A stretch of 64,000 bases of DNA from an uncultured virus (IMG/VR IMGVR_UViG_3300025613_000003) (IMGVR_UViG_3300025613_000003), one strand, 5' to 3'; shown: positions 17,080 to 61,779, numbered from the stretch's first letter. Notes: generated by a model not told the origin, from the letters alone. Numbers and translations: made by a program.

Positions 17080-17085
17080 ACCGTA

Positions 17086-21132: not shown

Positions 21133-21134
21133 GC

Positions 21135-27629: not shown

Positions 27630-28064
27630 ATGGTTAATCCCGATCTTCCAAGTCTGTTCCGGCACATGGCCATGGTCGAGGCCAAGATGGGACGAAACGA
27701 GTTCTGGGGCAGGATCTACGAAGCCTTGGAGCGGGTTTCAGGCATTGACCACATCGGAATCGATCACGGCATCACCGCCATGGCGTCCGAACTTCAGGTC
27801 AAGCGCGATCACTTGTTCTACGCCAAGCAGGACCGGGCCGCAACCTACGCAAGGAAGGTGGTTTGGTGCGTTCTGAGCGATCACTACAACCTCGACTACA
27901 AAGAGATTGCCATAATTTTCGGCTTCAACAAATCCGGGGTCAAGCGCGTACTGGACGATTACGCCCGGATGAAATCGGACGGGAGATTGGCACAGGATCG
28001 GGAGTTCATAACCGCCGTTGATCGGGTGGTAAACAGAGTTTTTCCAGATAAAGACAAGGCATGA
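27630..28064 (+). CDS. HTH protein resembling the DnaA C-terminal domain
   Basis: ARKVVWCVL...YKEIAIIFG..KSGV. Confidence 0.5.
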   Translation: MVNPDLPSLFRHMAMVEAKMGRNEFWGRIYEALERVSGIDHIGIDHGITAMASELQVKRDHLFYAKQDRAATYARKVVWCVLSDHYNLDYKEIAIIFGFNKSGVKRVLDDYARMKSDGRLAQDREFITAVDRVVNRVFPDKDKA

Positions 28065-30344: not shown

Positions 30345-30614
30345 TTATCTCTTTGGCAAGAGCGTGATCAAGACCTGAGTACTGTCGGAATTGTATTCGA
30401 CCTGGACGCGGTCGGCGGCGGTCACGGCCTCCATGTTTTTGACCTTGTCCTCCAAGACCTTGACCTTCCACTCAGCCTCAGACTGCAGGAATTCGGTTTC
30501 GGCTTGGTTCTGTTTATCTTCTGTTTGAAGTTTGATAATGGCGTAGCCAAATATCATCAACGAAATCAAAACCATTACCGCAGCTCCACCGCCGCTTATT
30601 CTGTTTATCATCAC
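30345..30614 (-). CDS. Membrane-anchored coiled-coil protein
   Basis: N-terminal TM; packed in the reverse operon. Confidence 0.55.
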   Translation of the reverse strand: MMINRISGGGAAVMVLISLMIFGYAIIKLQTEDKQNQAETEFLQSEAEWKVKVLEDKVKNMEAVTAADRVQVEYNSDSTQVLITLLPKR

Positions 30615-31243
30615 GATACCTGGTTTGGGATTTGTGGAACAACGAACAAACAGCCTCGCCGCGCCCCCGCGGCTTGTTTGTTGTAGAAAAGAATTGGGTC
30701 GGGGCCGTAGATTTCCTCGACCAGGTTCTTAACCCAGGAATACTCATAGACGATGCCCTGATCGGGATATACGTCAAACCCCATGGTTTCGTCCTCGGGG
30801 TTCTTGAAGTCGTGAATCGCCAGCACGGGCTTGATCCCGCTGTTGCGAATCGCTTCCAGTTCTTTCAGCACCGGGTTTTCGTACCAATGTGCATCGAGAA
30901 AGATCAGGACGTTGCCGTGGAAATTGCGCTTGATCGAGTAGGTACCGACTGCGACAAAGCCCTCCAATACACGGGTCAGGCAATCGGCGCTACTGCCCTT
31001 GATTGCGGTCACGTTCTTTAACCCGGCGTTGAGAAAGCGGGACATGGCGATGGCGTAGAATTCGTCATTGACCTCGATGGTTGCGACCTGGTCGAAATTG
31101 CGGCAGAGCCATTCCGTTGTTTTGCCGTGATAGGTTCCGGTTTCGATCACGACCTTGATGTTATACAAGTCACGGAGATCACGAAAGTATTCCTCCATGA
31201 AGGTGTCCTCGTTAAAAGGACCGTTGTCGAATGCCATTGACAT
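30611..31243 (-). CDS. Class I SAM-dependent methyltransferase (small-molecule/glycan type)
   Basis: IETGTYHG, TIE, GSSAD, IFLDAH, IHD. Confidence 0.8.
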   Translation of the reverse strand: MSMAFDNGPFNEDTFMEEYFRDLRDLYNIKVVIETGTYHGKTTEWLCRNFDQVATIEVNDEFYAIAMSRFLNAGLKNVTAIKGSSADCLTRVLEGFVAVGTYSIKRNFHGNVLIFLDAHWYENPVLKELEAIRNSGIKPVLAIHDFKNPEDETMGFDVYPDQGIVYEYSWVKNLVEEIYGPDPILFYNKQAAGARRGCLFVVPQIPNQVS

Positions 31244-31268
31244 GGTTATAGGTTTTGGTTAAGGATTA

Positions 31269-31568
31269 TTAGTTGAGGCAATAAGCGGCGGATCGCCCCT
31301 TCATTCCCGCCCGTTGGTAATCATGATATTGGTAATAATGCACGATTCCGATTTCGTCCAAGGCGGCTCCGCGCTCGTCATAAAATTTAAGATATTGATA
31401 TGCTGATTCCCCAATCTCTTTCCTTTTCCAAGTCAAATCAGCATCAGCGTAATAGACAACGGCGATGAAAGCGCACATCGTTCTTGCCGCGGCCATCATG
31501 AGTTCATCGCCAAGGTTAAAGTATCCAAGGCAGGCGACAAGACCGGGGCGGGAGTTAATTGAGGTCAT
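31269..31568 (-). CDS. Hypothetical protein
   Basis: Packed ORF; GYFNLGDELM resembles a pyruvyltransferase N-terminus. Confidence 0.45.
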   Translation of the reverse strand: MTSINSRPGLVACLGYFNLGDELMMAAARTMCAFIAVVYYADADLTWKRKEIGESAYQYLKFYDERGAALDEIGIVHYYQYHDYQRAGMKGRSAAYCLN

Positions 31569-31830
31569 GGTGGATCACGATTTTGATTGGTTTACGCAAA
31601 AGACCTTCGCCGGGTTTCAAATAAAGGATATTTCTGTTTCCGTATCTATCGGGTAGGACAAAGACGTTGACCTTGTAGATGACGCGGTAAAGCCCGTTGG
31701 AATCCCTTCGCTTTCCATCCACAACACTGGTAACGGCATTGGTCATGGCGTCCTCCCCGAATTCAAACGGTGTGATTTGGTGTAGGTCAAACACATCGTG
31801 ATAGGCTTGGATATGGACGGGGTTCTGCAT
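31555..31830 (-). CDS. Hypothetical protein
   Basis: Packed ATG ORF. Confidence 0.5.
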   Translation of the reverse strand: MQNPVHIQAYHDVFDLHQITPFEFGEDAMTNAVTSVVDGKRRDSNGLYRVIYKVNVFVLPDRYGNRNILYLKPGEGLLRKPIKIVIHHDLN

Positions 31831-31851
31831 AGTCTGGGACAGGACAAAAAT

Positions 31852-31881
31852 AAGGGGGTCGGAACCGTTTCCGACCCCCTT
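31852..31881 (-). terminator. Intrinsic terminator-like hairpin
   Basis: aagggggtcggaa-ccgt-ttccgaccccctt; T-run on the minus strand downstream of the 961-aa gene. Confidence 0.7.
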
Positions 31882-31899
31882 TGCTTGAAATATACCGGA

Positions 31900-34785
31900 C
31901 TAGACGTTGACCCAGTTCCCGCCCGGGAAGTGGGCATGGTATTGTTGCACAACGTATTCTAAGCCCAGGTTCGCATCGGCGTTGGTAAGGATTTGCGCCG
32001 GCACCATGTATAAGTTGAGGCCATCGTTTTGGCCGATGACGCGGTAGCCGTGCCGAATCGCTAGTTTACAGAACGCTGAAAACGAAGCACCGTAGTAGTC
32101 GTTGTTTCTCCAGACGTGATCGGGATTGTACGCGATGGTGACGGCTCGGTCCTGGGTTATGGTGCCGTTGAATTCGGCGATGATGATCTGGGGTCGGTAG
32201 CCACCGCCAAGGATCCGGTCCAGCACCCAATAGTCGTTGCCGTCGATGTCGATACTGAGCAGATCGAATTCCTTGGGAACTTCATACTTGGCAAAGAGGT
32301 TGCAGATGTTGTCGGCGGTGATATGCTCGGCTTTGACTTCGGCATTGCCCTTGTTGTCGCCGTCCATGAGCAGACCCCGCCAACCCTGCTCGATCAGGAA
32401 CCGGGTGTTGGAGAGGTGGAATCCGTCACCGGCTCCGAAGTCAACCAGGTAATGCGACTTGGCTCCAATGATTTCGATCAGGGTGTGGAGTATGCCCTCC
32501 TCTCCGCTTTGGCTGTATTTCTTCCACCGCGGCGCGGTCTTGATCGCGCTAGCGAGTTGTACGGGATTGAATCGGGTCGAGTTCATTTCCTCTTTTTTCA
32601 GCGGCATCCGGCTAAAGACCTGGAGTAGCATTTGCCGTACCCGCTTTTTCCAGGTGTGATTGTGATTCACCGAAAAAAAGTTTTGATATGCCCTTTGTTC
32701 CATATAGTCCCGGTATTGAGTCATATTCTGCCAATCCGGGTAAGGCATGAGCATGTAGCCATGGCTCACAACCTCGGTATCGTCAAGGGCTTCAATGAAC
32801 TGCATCAGGTTCCGTAACTGTTCCCTTAAAAAATCAACACTTCGGAACCCCGTTACCCAACCGCCAATCCAATCCTCGGCCATGCCGTCATAAAAACTGG
32901 TGTAGATAAGCGGAACCCCGGACGCTGCCGCAATCATAAGCCTGTCCGAGGTATAGCCTTCGCGGTGGAAATGGTTATGGCAGATGGCGATGTCAACGTC
33001 TTGGTAGAAACTGGTTTGATCCTGGTAGGGAATAACCGAAACATTGGCATTGGCGATGTCTTTCCAACCGTTTCCCGCCAACTTCAGGGGATTGAGAAGA
33101 TGTGGATATTCGGCCACGAAATCGGAAAGCATTTTCACTAGTTCGACCCTTTCCCGGCTCTGGGGAAAGCCGTCACCCTCGGGTAAGTCCACCTCCGTAC
33201 CGGTATAGTTGTGGCCAATCATGCCGATTGTGATCTTGTCGGATTTGCGCCGGCGATTGTATTTCGGGGACGGGAATGGTGCGGAGAAAAGGGCGGGATC
33301 GAAAGCGACTTGGAGGTAATCGCTCATGCCCGGAAATTCCTGATCGATGGCGCGAACATCGTCCATGTTGTTAAACAGGCAGATGCAGCCACGTCCGGCG
33401 AGCATGCGGTAGAACGAGAGATCGGAACGGACGTCACCGCTCCAATGCACAACCCGTGTCGTTGCCGCAATTTCCGAAACGGTTTCGGGCAGGATCACGC
33501 CCGGTCCCTGAATCTGCATGAACACAAGCGCGGGTTGATACAGACGGACGTGGGAAAGTATGGCGTCATTGAGCCTTGCCACGGCGTTACGGTCGGTGAG
33601 GAAAGCATGCCAGTCGATTTCGGTTACGCTGAAACCAAGTTCGGTAAAGGCGGAGCTGATTGGATTTGCATGTCCTTGCGGGTAGCTTGCGTTATTGGCG
33701 ATGTGGAGTACGCGGCAGCGGTGGCCTCGGTAGTCGTTGCCGAAGATTGCGGCAAGTCCGATGTCAATCGCTGCGGTTTCGGCCTTGGCGACCACTTCCT
33801 TTTCCTCAGCCTTTTGACCCTGATCGGTTTCATTCCCCGGCTCAGGTGCGGGTGCGCCCCCGACCGGTACCGGATCGGGATCTGGCTTGGCCTCGGCTGC
33901 AATGTCGTTGGCTGCGGCGGCTACGGGTTTTGACCGCTGCCGGTTCTCAATGATGGAGCGGATGACGTTGTTATCGTTCGGGAATTCGTTGATGCGATTT
34001 CGTAGATACTCTTTTACGTCATGGTCTTGTACTTCTCCATACCATAGAAAAATATGTCGGCGAAAACATTCCAAAACGAATCTGGATGAAGCCTTTGTGG
34101 TTGAGGCATCGTATATGCTGTCGCTGACAGCGTCCTTGTCAAAGTGCAGCCACAGCGATTCCGGCTCAACCAATTTGTACGGAGGCTCTATCCGGTCCTG
34201 GCCGGTATAGGTTCTGGCCTCGCTGTAATGTAGATGATAAATCGGAAGCTCGGCGGCGCAGTTGTAGAGGCGGTATCCGCGAAGGCTGAGTTCGTAACAG
34301 AATTTGTTGTCACAGCCGGGTACGCCCGGGGTGTAGTCAAACAGCGACCCCGGTTCAGGCACCGGGCCAAAGAATACCCAGGCGTCTTGTGAATCGGGGC
34401 GGTGAAAGGGTTGGGGATTGGTTACGCCATCGTATCGGCTCAGGGCGAAGGCGACCTTGTGCATGTCCTGGCCGTATTTCTTATACAGTCGGGACAAATA
34501 CACAATGGTCATGGGCGCAATCACGATGTCGCTGTTGCAGATGATGGTGATTTCCCCGTCTTGGCCGGGGCGGTGATTGACCAGGTCGGCGAACCGGATC
34601 CGGTTCGCGCCCTCAATCCAATGGCACTGAACCGTTGTGGACGGCATGTGCAGCATCACCGCCAAGTCATTGACGTAGTCGGCAACGTCTTGGTTAAGGG
34701 CCTGAGCGGTTTTGACCTCAAATCTTCGGATTAGGTTCTCGGGGACGTAGTTCTCGGCCACGATGTTGACGCTTATGTTTTCCAT
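31900..34785 (-). CDS. Multidomain glycosyltransferase / CgeB-like GT / FkbM-like methyltransferase fusion
   Basis: N-terminal CNSDI...DSQDAW...GCDN; central WSGDVR, SDRL; C-terminal YSQSGEEG, DFGAGDG, LSIDIDGNDYW. Confidence 0.75.
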   Translation of the reverse strand: MENISVNIVAENYVPENLIRRFEVKTAQALNQDVADYVNDLAVMLHMPSTTVQCHWIEGANRIRFADLVNHRPGQDGEITIICNSDIVIAPMTIVYLSRLYKKYGQDMHKVAFALSRYDGVTNPQPFHRPDSQDAWVFFGPVPEPGSLFDYTPGVPGCDNKFCYELSLRGYRLYNCAAELPIYHLHYSEARTYTGQDRIEPPYKLVEPESLWLHFDKDAVSDSIYDASTTKASSRFVLECFRRHIFLWYGEVQDHDVKEYLRNRINEFPNDNNVIRSIIENRQRSKPVAAAANDIAAEAKPDPDPVPVGGAPAPEPGNETDQGQKAEEKEVVAKAETAAIDIGLAAIFGNDYRGHRCRVLHIANNASYPQGHANPISSAFTELGFSVTEIDWHAFLTDRNAVARLNDAILSHVRLYQPALVFMQIQGPGVILPETVSEIAATTRVVHWSGDVRSDLSFYRMLAGRGCICLFNNMDDVRAIDQEFPGMSDYLQVAFDPALFSAPFPSPKYNRRRKSDKITIGMIGHNYTGTEVDLPEGDGFPQSRERVELVKMLSDFVAEYPHLLNPLKLAGNGWKDIANANVSVIPYQDQTSFYQDVDIAICHNHFHREGYTSDRLMIAAASGVPLIYTSFYDGMAEDWIGGWVTGFRSVDFLREQLRNLMQFIEALDDTEVVSHGYMLMPYPDWQNMTQYRDYMEQRAYQNFFSVNHNHTWKKRVRQMLLQVFSRMPLKKEEMNSTRFNPVQLASAIKTAPRWKKYSQSGEEGILHTLIEIIGAKSHYLVDFGAGDGFHLSNTRFLIEQGWRGLLMDGDNKGNAEVKAEHITADNICNLFAKYEVPKEFDLLSIDIDGNDYWVLDRILGGGYRPQIIIAEFNGTITQDRAVTIAYNPDHVWRNNDYYGASFSAFCKLAIRHGYRVIGQNDGLNLYMVPAQILTNADANLGLEYVVQQYHAHFPGGNWVNV

Positions 34786-34800
34786 ATCGGTTTCGGGATT

Positions 34801-35427
34801 TTAGGGTTTCATTTTTTTCAAACCGTCAACGATGGCTTTGATAGCCTTGTAGGTTTCGTTCTTGATCTCCTGATCTCGAACATCGGTTTGGGGATAGGAT
34901 AAGAGTATGAGTTGTAGTTGTTGGCTGTGGCCGGGATACTTCTTGACCATTTCCGAAGCCGACTTCAGCATGGCGTCCCAACCCGCATTTGCCTCGGCGC
35001 TGTCGGCTTCAAAGATGGGTTCGTACATGGTGATGCGGTCGCGGTAGTTCTGGATCATGTACTCCGCGTTTTTGAGATGCTGCCGGTCCTGGTGCCACTC
35101 AAACAATAGCGAAAATACTTCGGTGACGTGTCCGCGTTCAATAACCTTAATCAAGTCCATGTCGGGGAAAAGAGGCGCGGACAAGTCCTCTTGTTTTGCA
35201 AACTGCGACAGAGCCGATTCAAAACTAAAGCCGGGCCTTGTGGTGATAAACTTCGCCATGGCTTGTAATTTCATATCAGCAACTTTTATCTTTTCCCGGA
35301 GAAGGCCATAATAGATGGTCCAGTACTCAAGGGTACGTTTCAGTTCTTGTCGTGGCAGTGTCACCTTCGGCCCGGCGCTGTTATTCTTTTCCGGTGCCGG
35401 TTCGGGATTTTTGTTTACGATTTCCAT
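34801..35427 (-). CDS. Hypothetical helical protein
   Basis: 208-aa ATG ORF in operon. Confidence 0.6.
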   Translation of the reverse strand: MEIVNKNPEPAPEKNNSAGPKVTLPRQELKRTLEYWTIYYGLLREKIKVADMKLQAMAKFITTRPGFSFESALSQFAKQEDLSAPLFPDMDLIKVIERGHVTEVFSLLFEWHQDRQHLKNAEYMIQNYRDRITMYEPIFEADSAEANAGWDAMLKSASEMVKKYPGHSQQLQLILLSYPQTDVRDQEIKNETYKAIKAIVDGLKKMKP

Positions 35428-35446
35428 GGCTTTGATTGGTTTGGTT

Positions 35447-36073
35447 TTAGTAATCGGTTATTTTCGGTATGTGGCCAACGATATAGCCGCAGCCGTAGAT
35501 TTTGTCATAGCGGTTGCTGACTTGTTGAAGTCGTTGAATGAAATCGAAGTCGTGTCCGTAGCCGTCACAGCCCCGCCAGGTCAGGCCCGGTAGGTTATTG
35601 ACGTGGGCGATGTTGGAGGTGCCGCAACTGCCTTTGAAAAGGGCGGCGTTTCGGAGCTGGCTTTGGCTCGGCCCGGTCAGGATCCTGTCGTTGAAATAGC
35701 ACCAGTCAAGACCGAGTTCGTCAATTTTGGAACAGATATTGGACAGATGATTGGGCAGGATATAGTCATCGGCATCGAGATAGGCGATTATCGCCCCCTC
35801 GGCTACGTCAAGGCCGCGGCTTCTGACCTCGCCGCTGAACAATGGCTGCTTGTCGATTTCGTAGAGATAGATTTCGACATGACGATCCCACTTCTTCTCC
35901 CGACAAATCCGGTTCGTGATCTCGCAGCCATCGCTGACAATCACCAACTGTTTAAGGGCGTGATCATTTTTCAGGAATGAATTCACGGCGCGGACGAATT
36001 TTTTCTCCGCGTCTTTTGCCCTGTCCGGGTAGTGACCAAGGAACGAGGGCATGATGACGGATACAAATTTCAT
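35447..36073 (-). CDS. Glycosyltransferase family 2
   Basis: VSVIMPS, IVSDG, IAYLDADD. Confidence 0.85.
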   Translation of the reverse strand: MKFVSVIMPSFLGHYPDRAKDAEKKFVRAVNSFLKNDHALKQLVIVSDGCEITNRICREKKWDRHVEIYLYEIDKQPLFSGEVRSRGLDVAEGAIIAYLDADDYILPNHLSNICSKIDELGLDWCYFNDRILTGPSQSQLRNAALFKGSCGTSNIAHVNNLPGLTWRGCDGYGHDFDFIQRLQQVSNRYDKIYGCGYIVGHIPKITDY

Positions 36074-36774
36074 TTGCGGTATTTCCAGAACGGACGGTTT
36101 TCGTGATGGCAGATTCGGGAGGTATCGACCCAGACCTCCTGGCCACGGTTCATTAAGTCCTGGGCGAAGAATGTGTCGGGGTGGGCGTCAACGCCGGGTA
36201 CGTATCGGAACCGGAACTTGTTGAAAAGGGAGCGGTGGATGAGTACGCAACCAAGTCCGGCATGAAACGCAGGCTTTACCGAGCCATCCATCCACGCCAC
36301 TGCATCCAGTCCGAGATTGACAACGTTCTTGACGTATTCGTTGTCGTTGACTTCCTGTACCTGGATCATGATCTCGCTTGAGCGTCCCTGTCCTATGAAG
36401 TACGGCAAGGCCGCAACGCTTCGGCGCATGCAGATCAGGTCAATGACCGCGGTTGCGGGTGGAAACACATCGGTTTCCAGATGCAGGAGGTAATCGAATT
36501 TGTTGGATATGGCATAATCCAGGCAGCGGTTGTGGCTAACGGCCATGCGCTGGACAATGCTTGATCTACCGATTTTGGGCCTGACCCATTCCACGTCAAG
36601 ACCCATGGCCCTGATCTTGCGGCTGTAATGATTTTTTTCGCTGTTGTCGGCAAGGAAAAGGCCGAGGCGTTTTTTCGGGTATGCGAGGTTGATAACGTTC
36701 TGAAGCCAAGCCTCAAAACAGTAGTCTTTGACATCGGCGGTCGGGGCCGCGATCAGGACCTTGGGATAGTACAT
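36070..36774 (-). CDS. GT-A fold glycosyltransferase
   Basis: VLIAAP, DYLLHLETDV, GLGCVLI, D.FF, VWVDT. Confidence 0.8.
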   Translation of the reverse strand: MYYPKVLIAAPTADVKDYCFEAWLQNVINLAYPKKRLGLFLADNSEKNHYSRKIRAMGLDVEWVRPKIGRSSIVQRMAVSHNRCLDYAISNKFDYLLHLETDVFPPATAVIDLICMRRSVAALPYFIGQGRSSEIMIQVQEVNDNEYVKNVVNLGLDAVAWMDGSVKPAFHAGLGCVLIHRSLFNKFRFRYVPGVDAHPDTFFAQDLMNRGQEVWVDTSRICHHENRPFWKYRK

Positions 36775-46035: not shown

Positions 46036-46520
46036 TGAAAACGCCGGGGCTGATACTGACTTCCTTGCTACTTGGCGGCTACGCCCTGCACTATGTGGTG
46101 CGGCAGCAACGGCTATTGACCAAGACCTCGATCAAGCCCTTGCGCTATCGCATACAAAAACTTGATGGTGACGACACCAGGATGACGATTGATCTGGCCA
46201 TGACGAACGGAACCGACATAAACTGCAAGGTTTGGGCGCGTGATCTGGCACTGAGTATCGGCTCAAACCGGGTCGGTACCGCATCCGTGCTGGACAAGGC
46301 CGTGGTTCCGGCAAGAAGCACCACCACCTTTACCGCGGCTCTTGCCTTCAGTCCAAAGAAGGCGGTGGCGTCCGGGCTAAAGGGTTTGTTTGGTGATTAC
46401 GCCGGACTTGCCGGCGTAGTGTTCAGGATCCAAGGCCATCTCACCGTTACGGCAGGGCTGTTCATCGGCCAGATCCCAATCAACATCGTCTTTAACCTGA
46501 GAGAGATCGTAGCGCAATGA
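46032..46520 (+). CDS. LEA_2/WHy-like membrane-anchored beta-sandwich protein
   Basis: N-terminal TM; LAMTNGT...VG...VPARSTT pattern. Confidence 0.55.
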   Translation: MMKTPGLILTSLLLGGYALHYVVRQQRLLTKTSIKPLRYRIQKLDGDDTRMTIDLAMTNGTDINCKVWARDLALSIGSNRVGTASVLDKAVVPARSTTTFTAALAFSPKKAVASGLKGLFGDYAGLAGVVFRIQGHLTVTAGLFIGQIPINIVFNLREIVAQ

Positions 46521-47623
46521 CCTGGCTCAAGTCCATAACACAGGCACAACGGGCATGGACCGGCGGCAGCGGCGGTGGCGGCACCCCCCCGGCACCCCCG
46601 CCAAGCCGCAAGCTGAAGCTGAACAACGCCGCGCCATGGCTGGGCAACGCCGCTCAGGAGGATGCGAGGTTGAACTATTGCATTGCCAAGGGATTTAACG
46701 GCATTCAGCTCTACGGCCTTTACGGCGTTTTCGGTGACCCCACCCTGGAGGGCTATCTCGCCTCCTTTATTCAGAAAGCCTACACCTTGTTCAATCTCAG
46801 CACCGTGGGCTGCATCATGGGTTCGGGCATAGCCGGGTTTCAGCTCGCCCTGACCTATAACGGCTCCGTTGCGGCCAACCAACGCTTCAACGACTTCAAC
46901 AAGGAGAATGAGTTTTGGAACGGCTACATGGTGCAATGGGAGGTATTGACCGCGGCTGCGGGTAGCACCTACACGATCACGATTGACGGCACCCCCTTCA
47001 GCTATGTCCGGGGCGGTGGCGACACCAATGATGACGTAGCCGCTGCGCTTGCGGCCTTGATTGACGCCGACCCTGATCTGGCCGGGACAAGCACGAATGA
47101 ATTCGTGTATGCGCGTAACACCGCGGATCTGCTCACCTACACATACAGCGAAACCGCCAACCTCGACCCGAGCCTGATCAACGAGGATTATGCGTCATGG
47201 ATTGCGAGCCTGCAATGGCTCGCGCCTCAACTGAGCGGAACGGAATTGATTTCGGCATACGTGGCCAATCCCGGCAACCGTTGGGCCGTAGCCGAGGCCG
47301 AGGACATGATTCAGGTCATTGACTTCTACGAGGGTACGAACTACACCACAGCACCGGATGAGGGTCAGACCGGGTTCCGGGATTATCAACTCCTGTACCT
47401 GGGACAAGCCTGCGTGAACCTTGGCCTTACCCAAACGTTTCAGACCTTGTTCTCAGCTGAACCCGTGTTCATGGGTCCATACCTTAACGCCAACGGCATC
47501 GCCGTTGCGGAATCGACCTGGGATACTCAGTACGGATTGGATACCTTCACGGGCAAGGATCAACTTGTTCACAACGGTTTCAATTACTTCGACTACAACG
47601 ACATGATCATCTACGTACCATGA
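46517..47623 (+). CDS. Putative virion surface protein with GH-like TIM barrel, paralogue A
   Basis: YC..KGFNGIQLYGL, FNKENEFW, FSAEP.FM; shared with 47620 and 52942. Confidence 0.6.
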   Translation: MTWLKSITQAQRAWTGGSGGGGTPPAPPPSRKLKLNNAAPWLGNAAQEDARLNYCIAKGFNGIQLYGLYGVFGDPTLEGYLASFIQKAYTLFNLSTVGCIMGSGIAGFQLALTYNGSVAANQRFNDFNKENEFWNGYMVQWEVLTAAAGSTYTITIDGTPFSYVRGGGDTNDDVAAALAALIDADPDLAGTSTNEFVYARNTADLLTYTYSETANLDPSLINEDYASWIASLQWLAPQLSGTELISAYVANPGNRWAVAEAEDMIQVIDFYEGTNYTTAPDEGQTGFRDYQLLYLGQACVNLGLTQTFQTLFSAEPVFMGPYLNANGIAVAESTWDTQYGLDTFTGKDQLVHNGFNYFDYNDMIIYVP

Positions 47624-56917: not shown

Positions 56918-57127
56918 ATGTCCGACACTCAAAACCCGATGGAACCATTTCTCACCGGCCTTTTTGTCGGTGCCGTGGCGGGAATAGCGTTACGGTCATG
57001 GCTCCTGTACCGTCAGAACAATCTGCCCCGGCTCAGGCGAAAGCTACGGGAAGCCGTTGAACGGGAAGATTACGAACGCGCCGCCATATTGCGGGATCGC
57101 ATCAACGAGGTTTTGAATCGTAAGTGA
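56918..57127 (+). CDS. Small TM protein with UvrB/C (UVR) motif
   Basis: LREAVEREDYERAAILRDRI. Confidence 0.75.
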   Translation: MSDTQNPMEPFLTGLFVGAVAGIALRSWLLYRQNNLPRLRRKLREAVEREDYERAAILRDRINEVLNRK

Positions 57128-57846
57128 TGGCAAAGGCTCGGAAGTCGGGAAAGAAACGGCCTGTGATGAAATCCAAGCCGTCACGCCGCCGCCGCGGCTC
57201 CGCACCCAACCCTGTGCCAAAACCGGCCAAGCCAAGGCGTAAACAAAAGCTACTGCCCTTTTTAAAGAAGGACGGGTCACCGAGGAAGAACACGGTGGTG
57301 ACGCCGTATCTGACCAAGACCGGGCAACTCAACCGCAGATTCAAATACCCGGAAGGGGTTAAGACCCCGCTTGATCTTTACAAACGCCTGAGTTTTCCCA
57401 AGGTGGGCAAGCTCGGCCTTGGCGCAATCAAGGGCAAGCCCTGGCTGAACCGTGACGGTAGCGTAAGGAAGGGGACGCGGATATCGAAATGGCTGACCAA
57501 GACGGGTAAGATCCGCAAGAACCGGAAACTTCCCGCCGGGGTAAAAACCGTGAAGGGGCTGTATTCCTACCTTCAGAAAAAGAACTTCAAACCAAGTCAG
57601 GCCCGGAAATCAGGCCGGGCCGTATCGTTTTCCAACTCAATGTTTGTCTGGATTTTCAAGGAGTACGTTACGAAAAACTTCAAAAAATGGGGCAAGGTCT
57701 ATATGGGCGGCAAACAAATAAGTTTTGAGAGATGGAACCTTTACGGTGATGACTACGTACAACGAATTACCGACCCCAACGATAGCCCACCCTCGGTTTA
57801 TTACGAGGTTGTGAGGTTGGATGACTACCGGTACCTCTTTTTCTAA
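57124..57846 (+). CDS. Highly basic protein with internal repeat (nucleic-acid binding)
   Basis: PFLKKDGSPRK..LTKTG..PEGVKT repeated as PWLNRDGSVRK..LTKTG..PAGVKT. Confidence 0.65.
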   Translation: MMAKARKSGKKRPVMKSKPSRRRRGSAPNPVPKPAKPRRKQKLLPFLKKDGSPRKNTVVTPYLTKTGQLNRRFKYPEGVKTPLDLYKRLSFPKVGKLGLGAIKGKPWLNRDGSVRKGTRISKWLTKTGKIRKNRKLPAGVKTVKGLYSYLQKKNFKPSQARKSGRAVSFSNSMFVWIFKEYVTKNFKKWGKVYMGGKQISFERWNLYGDDYVQRITDPNDSPPSVYYEVVRLDDYRYLFF

Positions 57847-57991
57847 GCAAACGCACAAGATCTTACTGAGATAAAAAACGACATGAGCAAACCCGAATTC
57901 CCAACCGTAGTCCGTGACGAAAATGGAAAACAAAAAGAAGTGTGGAAATATACATATTGAATTTCAACGTGTGTTGGGTATTTAGCCTGAC

Positions 57992-58087
57992 CGCTAACGG
58001 TTCGGGGCTTTGCGTAGTAGCCCTTAGTAAAAACTTAAAATTAACCACGACACTTGATAGGGCTATTACGCAAAACCCTTGTTAGCG
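57992..58087. repeat. attC-like site 1
   Basis: CGCTAAC-ggttc-ggggctttgcgtagtagccct...agggctattacgcaaaaccctt-GTTAGCG. Confidence 0.8.
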
Positions 58088-58125
58088 GTTCGTGCCAGTC
58101 GAGTAACCAATTAAAAAACGATACA

Positions 58126-58380
58126 ATGGCAAATCAAACAGTAGGACTTAGTTACGGGGTGTTGTCCGACCCATTAGACAAGCAACTTGACAAACAAGGC
58201 TTGAAGTATGACAAAAAGAAGATAGCACAATTTGAGGCAGAACGTGAAGCTGTAAATACTTTGCGTTTTGGTAGTGGATTGCTAACGGATAGCATGGTAG
58301 ATAAAATTCTGCCGAAACTCCATAAGAAAATCATTGCTCATGTTGCAAAGGCTAATGGTCAGTCGGTTGTCAAGGCATGA
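58126..58380 (+). CDS. Cassette 1 gene, hypothetical (frame open back to TTG 58054 inside the hairpin)
   Basis: Stop TGA abuts CCGCTAAC of site 2. Confidence 0.7.
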   Translation: MANQTVGLSYGVLSDPLDKQLDKQGLKYDKKKIAQFEAEREAVNTLRFGSGLLTDSMVDKILPKLHKKIIAHVAKANGQSVVKA

Positions 58381-58381
58381 C

Positions 58382-58473
58382 CGCTAACGGTTTGTGTATG
58401 AGCAGTGGCACTTGTACACACTTTCAAATTAGCACTAACTTGTCTGTGCCATTGCTTATACACGGTGTTATGT
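58382..58473. repeat. attC-like site 2
   Basis: CGCTAAC-ggttt-gtgtatgagcagtggcac...gtgccattgcttatacac-ggt-GTTATGT. Confidence 0.8.
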
Positions 58474-58500
58474 GCCGTTTTTATTCAATAATTTAGAAAT

Positions 58501-59043
58501 ATGAAGAAATATAAAACAATATTGATTGACCCACCTTGGGAATATGATGTACCTGTAAAAAGAAAAGATAGTAGAAAAGGCAGGGCTGAAAGAGCAGGTA
58601 AAACTATGCACCCACCTTATCCAATGATGAAAATGTCCGAAATTGAAAAAATGCCTATAAGTGAATTAGCTGATGACAATTGCCATTTGTGGCTTTGGAC
58701 TACTAATAAATATTTGCCTGATGCAATACGACTTTGTGAATTGTGGGGGTTTAAATTTTTTCATTTGGTTACTTGGGTTAAGCCGAGTGGAATAGGGATG
58801 TGGTTTGTTCATAGGACACAACCTTTGATATTCGCATATAAAGGTAAAATGAACTTTCAACGGAAATGCAATCCCAATGTATTATTTAGCGGAAATCCTA
58901 AACGGCATAGCGAAAAACCTGAATGTAGTTATGAACTTATTGAAGCTATTAGTTCAAGCCCCAAAATTGAATTATTTGCCCGTAGAGAACGTGAAAATTG
59001 GGATGTTTGGGGAAATGAAGTTGATAGCAGTGTCACTCTTTAA
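58501..59043 (+). CDS. Cassette 2 gene: MT-A70 family N6-adenine methyltransferase
   Basis: ILIDPPW, LWLWTTN, WGF, TWVK, HSEKP, IELFAR, WDVWGNE. Confidence 0.92.
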   Translation: MKKYKTILIDPPWEYDVPVKRKDSRKGRAERAGKTMHPPYPMMKMSEIEKMPISELADDNCHLWLWTTNKYLPDAIRLCELWGFKFFHLVTWVKPSGIGMWFVHRTQPLIFAYKGKMNFQRKCNPNVLFSGNPKRHSEKPECSYELIEAISSSPKIELFARRERENWDVWGNEVDSSVTL

Positions 59044-59049
59044 AATGGC

Positions 59050-59175
59050 ACATAACGGTTTCGGGCTTGGCGAAGTTGCCGAACCGAAAAGCTAAATTGA
59101 AAAACAAAAGTTGAAATTATGGACGAAAGTTTAATTGAAAAACAGAACGGCAATTTTGCCAAACCCGTGTTAGGC
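59050..59175. repeat. attC-like site 3 (contains the ATG of the downstream gene)
   Basis: ACATAAC-ggttt-cgggcttggcgaagttgccg...cggcaattttgccaaacccg-t-GTTAGGC. Confidence 0.8.
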
Positions 59176-60189
59176 GTAGTGCTTTCTTTATTCGATGGTA
59201 TGAGTTGCGGACAAATTGCACTCAACAGAGCAGGTATTTCCTATGGCAAATATTATGCTTCGGAGATTGATAAACACGCCATCAAAGTAACACAACACAA
59301 CTACCCAAACACTATACAACTTGGAAGTGTTACAGAAATTAAAGGCACGGATTTACCTAAAATTGATTTATTGATAGGCGGAAGCCCTTGCCAAGGATTT
59401 AGTTTCGCAGGAAAACAACTAAACTTTGAAGACCCACGAAGCAAACTATTTTTTGAGTTTGTTAGATTGTTGAAAGAAACAAAGCCTAAATACTTTTTGC
59501 TCGAAAACGTCAGGATGAAAAAAGAAAGCCAAGATGTTATTTCAAAATATTTAAGGGTTGAGCCAATTGAAATAAACTCAAACCTTGTATCTGCTCAAAA
59601 CAGAAGGAGGCTTTACTGGACTAATATACCAAACATTGAACAGCCAAATGATAAAGGGATTTTGTTAAAGGATATTATAGTTGATGGTGGGATTGATTGC
59701 CGAATGACAACCGAAGATAAAGCTTATGCCTTAACCGCATCATATAACGGTGCTGTTGCTTGGAATAGTATTGAAAAGAAGCAGCGGACAATGATATTAG
59801 ATGCTGTGAATGGTAAAAAGGTACATATTGATTTATTTAAAGAAGCACCTTACACCTTTTACGAAACAAGAACCAATGAAGGTAAAGAAATGAGGCGTAA
59901 AATTAGGATTGAAACAGGTAGGGATTCAACTCCAAGAAGCAAAGAATTTAAAATGTATTTACCATTGAAAGAGCAAAAAGCAAATTGTCTTGTAACAGTA
60001 GAAAGCCCTTTGGATTTTATAGTAGATAAAAGTTGGAAATACAGAAAGCTATACCCGATTGAAATGGAGAGATTACAAACTGTACCGGATGGATATACTA
60101 AAACAGCAAGCGATACACAAGCAAGACGAATGCTTGGTAATGGATGGACTGTTGATGTCATCGCTCATATTTTCGGAGGGATGTCTTAG
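59119..60189 (+). CDS. Cassette 3 gene: DNA (cytosine-5) methyltransferase
   Basis: LSLFDGMSCG, GGSPCQGFS, LENV, QNRRRLYW, ERLQTVP, LGNGWTV. Confidence 0.93.
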   Translation: MDESLIEKQNGNFAKPVLGVVLSLFDGMSCGQIALNRAGISYGKYYASEIDKHAIKVTQHNYPNTIQLGSVTEIKGTDLPKIDLLIGGSPCQGFSFAGKQLNFEDPRSKLFFEFVRLLKETKPKYFLLENVRMKKESQDVISKYLRVEPIEINSNLVSAQNRRRLYWTNIPNIEQPNDKGILLKDIIVDGGIDCRMTTEDKAYALTASYNGAVAWNSIEKKQRTMILDAVNGKKVHIDLFKEAPYTFYETRTNEGKEMRRKIRIETGRDSTPRSKEFKMYLPLKEQKANCLVTVESPLDFIVDKSWKYRKLYPIEMERLQTVPDGYTKTASDTQARRMLGNGWTVDVIAHIFGGMS

Positions 60190-60294
60190 CATTACGCCTA
60201 ACTACCAAATTGGCGAAACTTTACTTCGCCAACTATCTCATAAAAAGCAATAACACGAAACCATGACTATCACCCAACCCAAGAAAGGAAAAAA

Positions 60295-60525
60295 ATGTCA
60301 ACCATAGAATGCCCATCTATTGAAAAGCCTGTGAGGCAATTTTTATGCTACGTATTGCGAACCGCAAGTAATATGCGCTATCAAGAATTTACAGGTGAAT
60401 GGAAGCCAGTTCAACCCGAAAGATGGGAGAAATGGAATGTGCTTGCGGAAACAAAAGAGGGCGCAAGAAAAATTGCTAAATACCACTTTTATCAATCAAA
60501 AGGTGACAACATATATATTAAATAA
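60295..60525 (+). CDS. Hypothetical protein
   Basis: ATG ORF preceded by AAAGGAA. Confidence 0.55.
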   Translation: MSTIECPSIEKPVRQFLCYVLRTASNMRYQEFTGEWKPVQPERWEKWNVLAETKEGARKIAKYHFYQSKGDNIYIK

Positions 60526-60556
60526 TTGCATTAATTTATAATGAACACATGATTGC

Positions 60557-60940
60557 ATGATAGCCCCCTACTCAAAGGAAGTATTTAAGGCCAAGATTCA
60601 GGCCGGAATTAAGATCCATACCATTCGCAAGGACGTGAGTAAGCGATGGCGACCCGGCATGGTGATTGATCACTGGATGCACAACCCGCGTCATACCGCA
60701 AAGAACCCGCACAGGTTCGCAACCGGAACCGTTACTGCTGTGCAGGACATTGAAATCGACTACGTCAACAAGCGGGTAATGGTTGAGGGCAGGATTTTAT
60801 TTCCCGAAGAAATTAAGGAACTTGCGATAGCGGACGGGTTCGACAACATCAGGCAGTTTTATCTCTGGTTTTACCAGGCCGATACCCCGTTTGAACCCTG
60901 GCGAGGGAGATTGATTCATTGGACAAGTAAGCGATACTGA
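60557..60940 (+). CDS. ASCH/PUA-like protein
   Basis: IQAGIKIHTIR...WRPG...LAIADGF...IHW. Confidence 0.7.
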   Translation: MIAPYSKEVFKAKIQAGIKIHTIRKDVSKRWRPGMVIDHWMHNPRHTAKNPHRFATGTVTAVQDIEIDYVNKRVMVEGRILFPEEIKELAIADGFDNIRQFYLWFYQADTPFEPWRGRLIHWTSKRY

Positions 60941-60942
60941 TC

Positions 60943-61779
60943 ATGGCCAACACATACGTAACCTCCGGTAAGGCAGGCCAAAAAGCAAGGGCGAACGTGG
61001 AAGAAATCATTACCGTCCTGCGACCCTGTATAGTAACCTATACCCACAACTCTACCCATATCAAGACCGATATGGGCGACATGATGTTCACCAACGGCGG
61101 GGGCAAATTAAATCTTCGTGAATTGGTATTTATTAAAAGATTCCGCGAGCATTACGTCAGGGTCGGAAAGGGACTGGACTACGACCTTGGCTATGCCAAG
61201 GTGAAGCCCGTGTATCAAAAATTCAATCCATGGAAAGGATTGGCAAAGGACGTGGTGGAGATCGACATTCGCCGCGCCTATCCCACGGCGGGAAGGATAC
61301 TCGGCATAGTCAATGACCAATTCTACGAGGAGGGGATTAAGTTCCCCAAGCAAACCTTTCTGATTGCGATAGGGAGCCTGAACCGCAAACGCAAAACCAT
61401 TGCCGTGGATCAGACCGGGCGGCGTAAAATTTTGCGGGAGGAAAAGCCTATGCCATACATGAGTAATTTGTGGAGCAGCATCGTGGGCCACATCGATTTC
61501 GTCATGCAGAAAGCCTGGGCATTGGCCGGTGCGGACGCCCGGTTTTATTGGTGCGATGCCATTTTTGTCAGGAGGAGATCGGCGAGGAAGATACAGGAAT
61601 TGCTTTTGCAATACGGTTTTGAAAGCAGGGTGGTGACGTTGAAAAAGTTGGAGTGGGGTCCTGAGCATATTCTCGCCATCAACGAATACGGCGACAAAAA
61701 GACCTATTGCTATCCCCAGACCAAGATTGTAAATTATGAGAATCTCAATGAAGTAGCACGAAAATTCATCAGGAAATGA
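60943..61779 (+). CDS. Minimal family-B DNA polymerase palm-like protein
   Basis: EIDIRRAYPT (motif A-like), K..L..IG (B-like), FYWCDAIF (C-like); no exonuclease domain. Confidence 0.5.
   Translation: MANTYVTSGKAGQKARANVEEIITVLRPCIVTYTHNSTHIKTDMGDMMFTNGGGKLNLRELVFIKRFREHYVRVGKGLDYDLGYAKVKPVYQKFNPWKGLAKDVVEIDIRRAYPTAGRILGIVNDQFYEEGIKFPKQTFLIAIGSLNRKRKTIAVDQTGRRKILREEKPMPYMSNLWSSIVGHIDFVMQKAWALAGADARFYWCDAIFVRRRSARKIQELLLQYGFESRVVTLKKLEWGPEHILAINEYGDKKTYCYPQTKIVNYENLNEVARKFIRK

What the first reader, a model, noticed from the sequence alone, without database searches (positions are those of the whole stretch)
57990..60235. Integron-like cassette array inside a virus genome, loaded with DNA methyltransferases
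Seen: an AT-rich block holds three genes separated by 92-126 bp imperfect hairpins bounded by ..TAAC and GTTA.., like integron attC R''/R' boxes. The sequence after each GTT is complementary to the far end of the same gene. Pairs: GTTAGCGGTTCGTGCC/GGCATGACCGCTAAC, GTTATGTGCCGTTTT/AAAATGGCACATAAC, GTTAGGCGTAGTGCT/AGCATTACGCCTAAC. For sites 2 and 3 it does not match the left arm of its own hairpin. Each stop codon sits in or abuts that end. Established: this cross-complementarity is the hallmark of cassettes that excise as circles and reinsert by site-specific recombination. Inference: the virus captures and shuffles anti-restriction cassettes (MT-A70, C5-MTase) using an integrase encoded elsewhere or by the host.
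Basis: partly seen in the sequence, partly recalled or inferred. Interest (0 to 1): 0.92.

Follow-up and report, generated by a model that had tools for sequence, protein, structure and literature searches.

The report
Phage gene-cassette array with integron-type hairpins
A phage-like genome from activated sludge carries three small swappable gene units, two of them DNA methylases that probably shield it from host restriction enzymes, each headed by a folding DNA hairpin of the kind bacterial integrons use to capture genes.

Summary
Window 57995-60202 contains three hairpin sites with TAAC/GTTA cores. The 15 bases after each GTT are complementary to the far end of the same gene.

My covariance model of the site finds exactly these three sites in the 64 kb. 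It also finds hundreds more in viral contigs, in isolated Flavobacterium phages, and in Bacteroidota chromosomes. In the chromosomes, arrays (one spanning about 500 kb) end beside a tyrosine recombinase.

The reading "integron-like cassettes, integrase elsewhere" is supported, with three corrections:
- The hairpin belongs to the gene downstream of it, and the breakpoint is at the left TAAC.
- In phages the genes lie on the folding strand (197 of 203 cassettes). This is the reverse of the bacterial arrays (67 of 78 opposite).
- The recombinase linked to the arrays is Xer-like and lacks the IntI-specific insertion. None is encoded in the window.

Closely related isolated phages differ by whole units, with a breakpoint inside a shared 7-base TAACGTT. 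Contigs of other sludge samples leave the window's sequence at 60199-60202.

attC clusters with methylases in phages are already in print (Qi et al. 2023). This site family and its mirrored layout did not turn up in my literature searches. Earlier notes of this scan describe the same family on other DNA.

The parts
57995..58084 (+). Hairpin site S1 (TAAC ... GTTA), head of unit 1
   Evidence: Scores 80.4 bits, E 7.7e-18, with site model R1. Fold -24.57 kcal/mol, z -4.34. 95-99% identical over exactly 57995-58084 to hairpins in L019, L004, L034, L087, L067 and L039.
58081..58096 (+). Right arm of unit 1 (GTTAGCGGTTCGTGCC), complementary to 58375-58389
   Evidence: Read. Fits with one extra T and one G.T position.
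58126..58380 (+). Cargo gene 1, 84 aa, no known family
   Evidence: ORF list. No Pfam match. One weak PHROG match, phrog_25508, E 7.4e-4.
58375..58389 (+). End arm of unit 1 (GGCATGACCGCTAAC); the stop codon TGA lies inside it
   Evidence: direct repeat D8 shows its likeness to the flank left of S1.
58385..58470 (+). Hairpin site S2, head of unit 2
   Evidence: R1 52.6 bits, E 7.4e-11. Fold -18.7 kcal/mol, z -2.96.
58467..58481 (+). Right arm of unit 2 (GTTATGTGCCGTTTT)
   Evidence: Inverted repeat I10 with 59042-59056, 15 nt, 93%.
58501..59043 (+). Cargo gene 2: MT-A70 family N6-adenine DNA methyltransferase, 180 aa
   Evidence: PF05063 E 4.3e-25. phrog_359 DNA methyltransferase E 9.6e-48.
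59042..59056 (+). End arm of unit 2 (AAAATGGCACATAAC)
   Evidence: Inverted repeat I10. The 40 nt before this TAAC are 90% identical in L017, where a different hairpin follows.
59053..59172 (+). Hairpin site S3, head of unit 3; its loop holds the ATG of the next gene
   Evidence: R1 123.8 bits, E 9.5e-29. 78-90% identical to sites in Flavobacterium phages and many viral contigs.
59119..60189 (+). Cargo gene 3: C5-cytosine DNA methyltransferase, 356 aa. It starts 50 nt before the GTT core and reads through the right half of S3.
   Evidence: PF00145 E 8.9e-47. ORF list. 85.7% identical over 490 nt to L009, hairpin included.
59169..59183 (+). Right arm of unit 3 (GTTAGGCGTAGTGCT)
   Evidence: Inverted repeat I11 with 60188-60202, 15 nt, 93%.
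60188..60202 (+). End arm of unit 3 and end of the array (AGCATTACGCCTAAC)
   Evidence: Inverted repeat I11. Contigs of runs X4 and X9 stop matching the window at 60199-60202.
60203..60235 (+). Sequence behind the array: an 8-bp stem (60210-60217 with 60225-60232) and no GTT core. Possibly a docking site or a decayed site.
   Evidence: Fold -8.0 kcal/mol, z -2.12. Array ends of other loci carry a similar TAAC + 8-10 nt + T(A/T)TACG(A/C)AAC motif or short hairpins (read by eye).
57850..57994 (.). AT-rich stretch left of S1, ending in a proper end-arm-like sequence (TAGCCTGACCGC before TAAC). Either a remnant of an older unit or the left half of the target.
   Evidence: D8. No R1 site lies here.
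60236..60550 (+). AT-rich stretch right of the array with a 76-aa ORF (60295-60525) of no known family. Its status is open.

Best explanation
Window 57995-60202 is an array of three mobile gene cassettes of the integron kind. They belong to a site family shared by Bacteroidota chromosomal arrays and Bacteroidota phages.

Each unit reads, 5' to 3' on the coding strand: C, a 5-nt bulge (GGTTY), an imperfect stem of about 17-20 bp with a variable loop, GTTA, an 11-nt right arm, the gene, an 11-nt end arm complementary to the right arm, then TAA.

Proposed mechanism. The coding strand folds as single-stranded DNA. A tyrosine recombinase of the Xer/IntI type cuts at or next to TAA|C and exchanges strands with another such site. 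Units can then leave as circles and re-enter.

No such enzyme is encoded in the 64 kb. It would come from the host's own array, from a co-infecting element, or from an unseen part of the phage genome.

The cargo is one MT-A70 and one C5 DNA methylase plus an 84-aa unknown. It most likely protects the phage DNA from restriction in different hosts.

Shown here:
- the site structure and its covariation;
- the per-gene arm complementarity;
- the unit boundaries and the linkage of hairpin to downstream gene;
- polymorphism at the cores in related phages and in other samples;
- the same sites beside a recombinase in bacteria.

Inferred:
- that this recombinase is the catalyst;
- which strand folds and the exact cut;
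- the circular intermediates;
- activity in this particular phage;
- the anti-restriction role.
For: Structure:
- Over 43 sites, 91.7% of cells are paired and 10 of the 16 stem pairs change on both sides. 0 of 500 shuffles reach the covariation score.
- G.U-type pairs are kept at two stem positions (25 and 32 of 43 sequences) and can form only on the coding strand.
- All three window sites fold better on the + strand.

Specificity: model R1 finds the three sites and nothing else on the + strand of the 64 kb.

Arm logic:
- In viral loci, 134 of 194 neighbouring sites have at least 9 of 12 complementary bases across the gene. This compares with 2 of 270 for a hairpin's own flanks and 71 of 5000 random pairings.
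- In bacterial arrays the figure is 41 of 69. The same G (right arm) opposite T (end arm) occurs at position 8 in all 41.

Unit boundary:
- mumin6-1 equals filifjonk9-1 minus a three-unit block, with the breakpoint inside a shared 7-nt TAACGTT. The hairpin stays with the downstream gene. A further one-unit insertion sits at TAAC|TAC.
- Among 266 pairs of sites with hairpins at least 90% identical but in different contexts, 65 share only the right arm and 0 share only the left arm. 3 share both and 198 share neither.
- Hairpin identity follows the downstream gene: mean 0.765, with 38% of 77 pairs at 0.9 or more. It does not follow the upstream gene: mean 0.553, with 0 of 66 pairs at 0.9 or more, against a background of 0.561.

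The window's own units move:
- S1 is 98.9% identical to the L019 hairpin over exactly TAAC..GTTA.
- S3 plus the methylase is 85.7% identical to L009 over 490 nt, behind a different upstream gene.
- The MT-A70 end recurs in L017 before a different hairpin.
- In run X9 a contig holds the backbone 60199-61325 preceded by 956 nt unlike the window. A second contig with a C5-methylase-like gene stops matching at 60202. In run X4 a contig with the backbone from 60199 onward runs on into unlike sequence.

Enzyme:
- In one complete Bacteroidota chromosome (G002), every printed match lies on one strand between 3,486,425 and 3,982,505. The genome's best TIGR02249 match lies just beyond, at 3,985,825-3,986,625, on the other strand.
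- The same layout is seen in G001 and G004.
- Homologues (33-55% identity) lie in 11 further bacterial array-derived loci (12 with the query's own locus L372).

Cargo: 35 of 150 non-redundant phage cassette ORFs are DNA methyltransferases.
Against: - No recombinase was found in the window: Pfam on 79 ORFs, tblastn, and a profile search whose best E was 0.55.
- Only 1 contig among the viral loci L001-L124 holds one, and filifjonk9-1 has no annotated integrase.
- No circle, excision product or activity was seen. The run data are contigs, which break at repeats, so the junction evidence is indirect.
- The linked bacterial recombinase scores below the integron-integrase cut-off (224 against 265 bits). 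It lacks about 43 residues where IntI carries its specific insertion, which the literature treats as necessary for attC recombination.
- The site geometry (a 5-nt bulge on the 5' arm, 1 nt opposite) differs from my recollection of canonical attC.
- 198 of the 266 similar-hairpin pairs share neither arm. Either hairpin types are few, or hairpins are also exchanged by another route.
- 60 of 194 neighbouring pairs lack arm complementarity.
- No relative of the window's backbone was found, so this very locus could not be compared between related genomes.
Confidence: 0.8

Rival explanations
1. The hairpins are repeated regulatory sequences, and genes are shuffled by ordinary homologous recombination between them, as proposed for the promoter-stem-loop (PeSL) cassettes of T4-type phages. 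No site-specific enzyme is involved.
For: - The outer stems are highly conserved (TAACGGTTTCGGGCTTGGCG and TTGCCAAACCCGTGTTA), giving about 20 nt of homology.
- Most phages with arrays show no recombinase nearby.
- 198 of 266 pairs with like hairpins share neither arm, as if hairpins were also exchanged on both sides.
- Loops carry start codons in 79 of 193 cassettes, so the element has an expression role.
Against: - Homologous exchange does not create or maintain an 11-nt arm pair specific to each gene, yet this is seen in 134 of 194 cases.
- The mumin/filifjonk three-unit breakpoint lies within a 7-nt shared core where the two hairpins then differ, and the one-unit insertion directly follows a TAAC.
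- Linkage is one-sided: 65 pairs share only the right arm against 0 sharing only the left.
- The same sites form arrays ending at a tyrosine recombinase in bacteria.
Confidence: 0.1
2. The block is a dead souvenir: a piece of a host chromosomal cassette array picked up once by the phage, with no further mobility in phages.
For: - The block is 15 points lower in GC than the backbone.
- There is no recombinase in the window.
- The same site family exists in Bacteroidota chromosomes.
Against: - Gene orientation relative to the site is opposite in the two settings. In viral loci the gene is on the site's strand in 197 of 203 cassettes. In bacterial loci it is on the other strand in 67 of 78. The window's units have the phage orientation, so they come from a phage pool, not from a bacterial array.
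- Units are polymorphic between closely related isolated phages.
- Contigs from other samples diverge at this locus's right boundary.
Confidence: 0.05
3. The hairpins act only at the RNA level (terminators, processing sites or translational leaders between early genes), and the arm complementarity serves RNA folding.
For: - G.U-type pairs are conserved on the coding strand.
- Sites are always co-oriented with the genes in phages.
- Loops provide start codons and in-frame leaders.
Against: - The hairpins have no U-tract. The terminator scan found 4 sites against 2.6 expected, and none is a full hairpin site.
- In bacteria the same sites lie antisense to the genes, so RNA function cannot be the common denominator.
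- An RNA role does not explain whole-unit gain and loss at the core.
- It may well be an added function in phages.
Confidence: 0.05

Closest known systems
Clusters of attC sites lacking an integrase (CALINs) in phage genomes (Qi et al. 2023, PMC9892861; I read the abstract, passages and section 3.4)
   Same: Cassette arrays without an integrase in virulent phages, several carrying DNA methyltransferases. Anti-restriction was proposed as the benefit. Some phage sites were recombined by IntI1 in an assay.
   Different: - That study found only 17 CALINs in 10,705 phage genomes, and its main text does not mention Flavobacterium phages.
- Its Polaribacter phage P12002L has no match to my site model, so it holds a different site type.
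- In the parts I read, it does not describe the hairpin heading its gene, the reversed gene orientation, start codons in the loop, or the bacterial arrays of this family.
Sedentary chromosomal integrons (IntI, attI, attC cassettes; e.g. Vibrio)
   Same: AAC/GTT cores, imperfect hairpins that fold as single strands, each cassette's two ends complementary, long one-directional arrays ending beside a tyrosine recombinase, and much cargo of unknown function.
   Different: - The recombinase lacks the IntI-specific insertion and scores below the family cut-off.
- The stem has a 5-nt bulge on one side.
- The recombinase gene points the same way as the cassette genes in the bacterial arrays.
- In phages the genes are inverted relative to the site.
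Integrons with the integrase co-oriented with the cassettes (Treponema-type 'inverted integrase' group; recalled, with only the search listing of PMC3607928 seen)
   Same: In the Bacteroidota arrays the recombinase gene and the cassette ORFs run in the same direction (G004).
   Different: Those integrases are described as true IntI with the additional domain (recalled). Here the insertion is missing.
PeSL mobile regulatory cassettes of T4-type phages
   Same: A repeated stem-loop element stands in front of small accessory genes in plastic regions of phage genomes and mediates gene shuffling.
   Different: PeSLs are thought to act by homologous recombination and carry an early promoter. Here there are fixed AAC/GTT cores, gene-specific complementary arms, and bacterial counterparts beside a recombinase.

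Membership tests
Integron (IntI + attI + attC cassettes) | An integron integrase (tyrosine recombinase with the IntI-specific additional domain) next to the array | tested here: not met
   - No tyrosine recombinase in the window.
- The recombinase beside bacterial arrays of the same sites scores 224 bits against a cut-off of 265 for TIGR02249.
- It aligns to IntI4 (2a3v) in two pieces, with 20 residues where IntI4 has 63.
Integron (IntI + attI + attC cassettes) | attC: an imperfect hairpin bounded by ..AAC and GTT.. cores | tested here: met
   TAAC/GTTA are invariant in 43 of 43 aligned sites. Stem covariation gave 0 of 500 shuffles as high.
Integron (IntI + attI + attC cassettes) | The two ends of each cassette are complementary to each other rather than to the neighbouring cassette | tested here: met
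   Window pairs I10 and I11. 134 of 194 pairs in viral loci. 41 of 69 pairs in bacterial loci.
Integron (IntI + attI + attC cassettes) | Canonical attC geometry (central spacer, extrahelical bases) and recognition by the published attC covariance model | not testable with these tools
   No IntegronFinder or HattCI model was at hand, and Rfam has no matching family. By eye the spacer is very asymmetric (5 nt against 1 nt), which differs from my recollection of canonical sites.
Integron (IntI + attI + attC cassettes) | The gene lies upstream of its own attC, on the strand opposite to the folding (bottom) strand | tested here: not met
   In phages the hairpin heads its gene and shares its strand: 197 of 203 cassettes, with linkage shown. 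The feature is met in the bacterial arrays: 67 of 78.
Integron (IntI + attI + attC cassettes) | Recombinase-dependent excision as circles and insertion at attI | not testable with these tools
   Only contigs of public runs could be laid. No raw reads or assays were available.
CALIN (cluster of attC sites lacking an integrase) | Two or more attC sites close together with no integron integrase nearby | tested here: met
   Three sites within 1.2 kb of each other by my own model. No recombinase in 64 kb. Not tested with the program that defines the class.
PeSL-type regulatory cassettes | The repeat carries a promoter and exchange is by homology along the repeat | tested here: inconclusive
   No sigma-70-like promoter in the hairpins, but Bacteroidota promoters are not covered by that scan. 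The three-unit breakpoint falls in a 7-nt core and the one-unit insertion directly follows a TAAC, not along the repeat.

The most novel reading that the evidence does not exclude
Phages of Bacteroidota run their own version of the integron.
- They use the same folded-site family as their hosts' chromosomal arrays. One such array spans about half a megabase, and these arrays are served by Xer-like recombinases that lack the insertion held to be essential for integron chemistry.
- The phage cassettes are built mirror-wise. The recombining strand is the coding strand, and the site sits in front of its gene and doubles as its leader, often supplying the start codon.
- This would make a separate, phage-only market of exchangeable genes, mostly DNA-modification enzymes against restriction. 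Because of the inversion, cassettes taken from bacterial arrays would sit antisense to the phage's genes, and phage cassettes would sit antisense to the cassette genes in a bacterial array.
- The window's three units, far lower in GC than their backbone, would be recent purchases on that market.
Probability: 0.55. Interest if true: 0.9.

Novelty: new variant of a known kind. Interest (0 to 1): 0.78.

Why it matters
Integrons are regarded as bacterial devices whose enzyme needs a special insertion to handle folded single-stranded sites. Phages were thought to carry at most stray pieces of them.

Here one site family links three things:
- very large cassette arrays in Bacteroidota, a phylum in which the program paper I read reported only integrase genes without cassettes and later one complete integron;
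- a recombinase without that insertion;
- a large pool of phage cassettes with inverted gene orientation.

If the mechanism holds:
- it widens what counts as integron chemistry;
- it gives a concrete route by which virulent phages swap anti-restriction genes, and so change host range in nature;
- it provides a searchable marker (site plus orientation) for telling phage arrays from bacterial ones in metagenomes.

For this window itself the practical yield is modest: a three-unit, integrase-less array.

Tried and rejected
- **Relatives of the backbone.** Patterns from the flanking proteins 57124-57846 and 60943-61779 found no relative in viral contigs or metagenome contigs. The same locus could therefore not be compared in related genomes.
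- **Backbone ORFs against isolated phages.** tblastn of 28061-29290 and 46517-47623 gave no match. No capsid or terminase was recognised in the window, so 'phage' rests on weaker grounds: a GH108 endolysin, PHROG matches for 20 of 43 ORFs, the absence of cellular core genes, and the phage-type cassette orientation.
- **Rfam.** Only four chance-level matches, E 3-9.
- **The 14-mer GACCGCTAACGGTT**. A hit count of that size is expected by chance in a collection this large (my estimate). Those loci (L125-L204 and on) were not used for counts.
- **A generic TAAC...GTTA hairpin detector**. It was noisy and missed S1 on the + strand. I dropped it in favour of the covariance model.
- **Polaribacter phage P12002L**, the published methylase CALIN. 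It has no match to my model at E <= 0.01.
- **Run data**.
  - Bins without cover in X4 and X8 (for example over the C5 methylase) are not used as evidence.
  - X9 record 25, which ends at 57998, may simply be a contig end.
  - For X4 record 16 I could not tell which end of the record runs beyond 60199 (159 or 551 nt).
- **HUH/IS200-IS605-type single-strand transposition** was considered because of the TAAC next to a hairpin. I rejected it: no such transposase is present, and that mechanism predicts no complementary arms.
- **Whole genome** of the window: not held.
Full report
**What is in the window.**
Between 57995 and 60202 lie three genes on the + strand, each preceded by an imperfect hairpin that begins with TAAC and ends with GTTA:
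- S1: 57995-58084
- S2: 58385-58470
- S3: 59053-59172

The genes are an 84-aa ORF of no known family (58126-58380), an MT-A70 adenine methylase (58501-59043) and a C5 cytosine methylase (59119-60189).

The block has 36-38% GC against 50-56% around it.

Two pairs match at 15 nt and 93% (I10 and I11). The third fits with one extra base. For S2 and S3 the right arm does not fit the left flank of its own hairpin. Each stop codon lies in or against the end arm. After the last end arm (60188-60202) there is only an 8-bp stem and no GTT core.

**Is the hairpin a real, recurrent element?**

An alignment of 43 sites has invariant TAAC and GTTA. Its 16-pair stem shows changes on both sides at 10 pairs. 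91.7% of cells are paired, and 0 of 500 shuffles reach the covariation score. Two stem positions keep G.U-type pairs (25 and 32 of 43 sequences), which can form only on the coding strand.

A covariance model built from this alignment (R1) finds the three window sites at 123.8, 80.4 and 52.6 bits. It finds nothing else on the + strand of the 64 kb; the only other hits are weak reverse-strand echoes of the same sites.

It also finds:
- 11 sites in 8.3 kb of Flavobacterium phage mumin6-1 and 15 sites in 10.8 kb of filifjonk9-1, all on the gene strand;
- 135 matches in 40 viral loci;
- 156 matches in 37 viral loci.

**The arm rule holds across the family.**
Of 281 distinct matches, 270 had recognisable cores; 11 were dropped.
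- Among 194 neighbouring site pairs, 134 have at least 9 of 12 complementary bases between the stretch after GTT and the stretch before the next AAC.
- A hairpin's own two flanks reach this in 2 of 270 cases, and random pairings in 71 of 5000.
- No pair reached 12 of 12 in the viral set.

In the bacterial arrays, 41 of 69 pairs reach 9 of 12. All 41 carry G in the right arm opposite T in the end arm at position 8. That is a wobble on the + strand of the model and would be a mismatch on the other strand.

**Where the units begin and end.**
The isolated phages mumin6-1 and filifjonk9-1 are collinear except for two differences:
- a three-unit block, whose breakpoint lies within a shared 7-nt TAACGTT, after which the two hairpins differ;
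- a single-unit insertion at TAAC|TAC at the array's end.

In both cases the hairpin stays with the gene downstream of it.

The wider sample agrees:
- Pairs of sites sharing the downstream gene but not the upstream one have similar hairpin interiors: mean 0.765, with 38% of 77 pairs at 0.9 or more.
- Pairs sharing only the upstream gene do not: mean 0.553, with 0 of 66 pairs at 0.9 or more, against a background of 0.561.
- Among 266 pairs with hairpins at least 90% identical in different contexts, 65 share only the right arm, none share only the left arm, 3 share both and 198 share neither.

So the unit is hairpin, right arm, gene, end arm, and the exchange point is at the left TAAC. This is the mirror image of the textbook cassette, in which the gene is followed by its attC.

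**The window's own units.**
- S1 is 95-99% identical, over exactly 57995-58084, to hairpins in at least six other viral loci. There it is followed by other arms and genes.
- S3 with the start of the C5 methylase is 85.7% identical over 490 nt to L009, behind a different upstream gene.
- The end of the MT-A70 gene recurs in L017 followed by a different hairpin.

Twenty public runs from 13 studies hold parts of the stretch. The best holders are activated-sludge metagenomes. Laying the contigs of four runs showed:
- Backbone on both sides in X1, X4 and X9.
- In X9, a contig covering 60199-61325 (12 differences) is preceded by 956 nt unlike the window.
- In X9, another contig with a diverged C5-methylase gene stops matching at 60202 and goes on for 26 other letters.
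- In X4, a contig covers the backbone from 60199 onward and runs on into unlike sequence.

These are contigs, which break at repeats, so they show alternative neighbours at the core but not the process.

**The bacterial counterpart and the likely enzyme.**
In whole genomes reached through the loci, R1 gave 22 to at least 150 matches per genome. In G002, a complete Bacteroidota chromosome, all printed matches lie on one strand between 3,486,425 and 3,982,505.

The best match in that genome to the integron-integrase family lies just beyond the array's end, at 3,985,825-3,986,625, on the other strand. An insertion-sequence-like gene lies between it and the array. The same layout is seen in G001 and G004. 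Homologues at 33-55% identity lie in 11 further bacterial array-derived loci (12 with the query's own locus L372).

The G004 protein (530 aa) compares as follows:

| Comparison | Result |
|---|---|
| TIGR02249 (integron integrase) | 224 bits, cut-off 265 |
| Archaeal XerA / integron-integrase model | 216 bits, cut-off 220 |
| Best solved relative | Vibrio IntI4 (2a3v) |
| Alignment to IntI4 | two pieces, with 20 residues where IntI4 has 63 |
| Alignment to XerA | one unbroken piece |

It is therefore an IntI-like or Xer-like recombinase without the IntI-specific insertion.

No such protein is encoded in the window: tblastn found none, the profile search's best E was 0.55, and Pfam on 79 ORFs found none. 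Among the viral loci only one contig (L073/L074) has one. Filifjonk9-1 has no annotated integrase.

**Phage arrays are inverted relative to bacterial ones.**

| Source | Cassettes examined | Longest ORF on the site's strand | On the opposite strand |
|---|---|---|---|
| Viral loci | 203 | 197 | 6 |
| Bacterial loci | 78 | 11 | 67 |

Five of the 11 bacterial exceptions sit on one contig, L284, that looks mis-binned.

In bacteria the layout is the classical one: the gene is followed by its site, the folding strand is antisense to the gene, and the recombinase gene runs the same way as the cassette genes. In phages the folding strand is the coding strand.

In 79 of 193 phage cassettes the first in-frame ATG lies inside the hairpin, at a median of 50 nt before the GTT core. 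Such hairpins are longer (median 118 nt against 86 nt). The window's C5 methylase is of this type: its ATG at 59119 lies 50 nt before G59169. The other two genes start 34 and 38 nt after the core.

Because of the inversion, the window's units cannot simply be a piece of a bacterial array.

**Cargo.**
200 phage cassette ORFs of 50 aa or more collapsed to 187 non-redundant ones, and 150 of these were scanned:
- 35 are DNA methyltransferases: 27 N6_N4, 5 C5, and 1 each of Dam, MT-A70 and N6.
- 12 match other families, among them a TET-associated glycosyltransferase, YopX, Rad52, HNH and a PAPS-reductase domain.
- 103 match nothing.

This fits an exchangeable anti-restriction kit, but that role is an inference.

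**What is known.**
- Qi et al. 2023 (PMC9892861) reported integrons and 17 integrase-less attC clusters in 10,705 phage genomes. These included virulent phages with methylase cassettes, and IntI1 recombined several of their sites. I read the abstract, passages and section 3.4. Their main text does not mention Flavobacterium phages, and their Polaribacter phage has no match to my model.
- The IntegronFinder 2.0 paper states that Bacteroidetes had shown only In0 elements before, and then one complete integron in Salinibacter (passages).
- Ghaly et al. 2022 list Bacteroidota among phyla with integrons and name the additional domain as defining IntI (passages).
- My full-text searches returned no paper describing this site family, the inverted phage cassettes, or arrays of this size in Bacteroidota. 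Subscription journals and the supplements of Qi et al. were not seen.
- Earlier notes of this scan describe the same family on other DNA, including phages with their own short Xer-type recombinase beside the array. I reached my reading before opening them, and I checked their main claims on my own data.

**Verdict.**
The region is best filed as a new variant of a known kind: an integrase-less cassette array in a phage, of a Bacteroidota-specific site family with mirrored cassette layout and a non-canonical recombinase. The mechanism is inferred, not shown.

Noticed in passing
G002 (contig C1) 3,486,425-3,982,505; locus L370: A complete Bacteroidota chromosome holds an array of the same hairpin sites spanning about 500 kb. 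At least 150 matches were scored (the cap), and all printed ones lie on one strand. The array ends beside an IntI/Xer-like recombinase, with an insertion-sequence-like gene in between. This would be among the largest cassette arrays I know of.
   Followed up: partly
Array ends in viral loci; window 60203-60235: After the last TAAC, many arrays carry either a motif of the form N8-10 + T(A/T)TACG(A/C)AAC or a short hairpin of about 45 nt ending in TGTTA, which my model does not detect. These may be a docking (attI-like) site and a second, minimal site class. I judged this by eye and did not count it.
   Followed up: partly
Arms of all units, e.g. window 58477/59046 and 59179/60192: Position 8 after GTT is G opposite T in the end arm. 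This held in 41 of 41 complementary bacterial pairs, and the viral list shows the same pattern. The wobble is conserved on the folding strand and may be a recognition feature.
   Followed up: partly
window 59088-59147: The loop of S3 holds a 22-nt direct repeat (59088-59109 and 59126-59147, 86%, repeat D4) around the methylase start codon.
   Followed up: no
window 144-1259 and 4631-5227: Two further DNA methyltransferases (C5 and Dam-like) lie outside the array and have no hairpin sites. The phage therefore also carries fixed methylases.
   Followed up: no
window 3025-3294: An 89-aa ORF has a weak match, below the cut-off, to the Acb2/Tad1 hairpin domain of anti-CBASS/anti-Thoeris sponges (E 3.7e-4, 21.1 bits against 27).
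   Followed up: no
window 14116-24170: Three very large ORFs (987, 1348 and 1011 aa) carry DUF5661, Strawberry-notch-like helicase and LPD1 polyvalent-protein domains. These are typical of large polyvalent proteins of phages and conjugative elements.
   Followed up: no
window 30611-36774, minus strand: A block of minus-strand genes encodes glycosyltransferases and methyltransferase-fold proteins, inside an otherwise plus-strand genome.
   Followed up: no
L284 (contig binned as an archaeal MAG): This contig holds two arrays of the phage-type orientation on opposite strands. It is probably a phage contig binned by mistake.
   Followed up: no
window 57124-57846: The gene just upstream of the array encodes a very basic 240-aa protein with no family match and no relative in the collections scanned.
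   Followed up: partly
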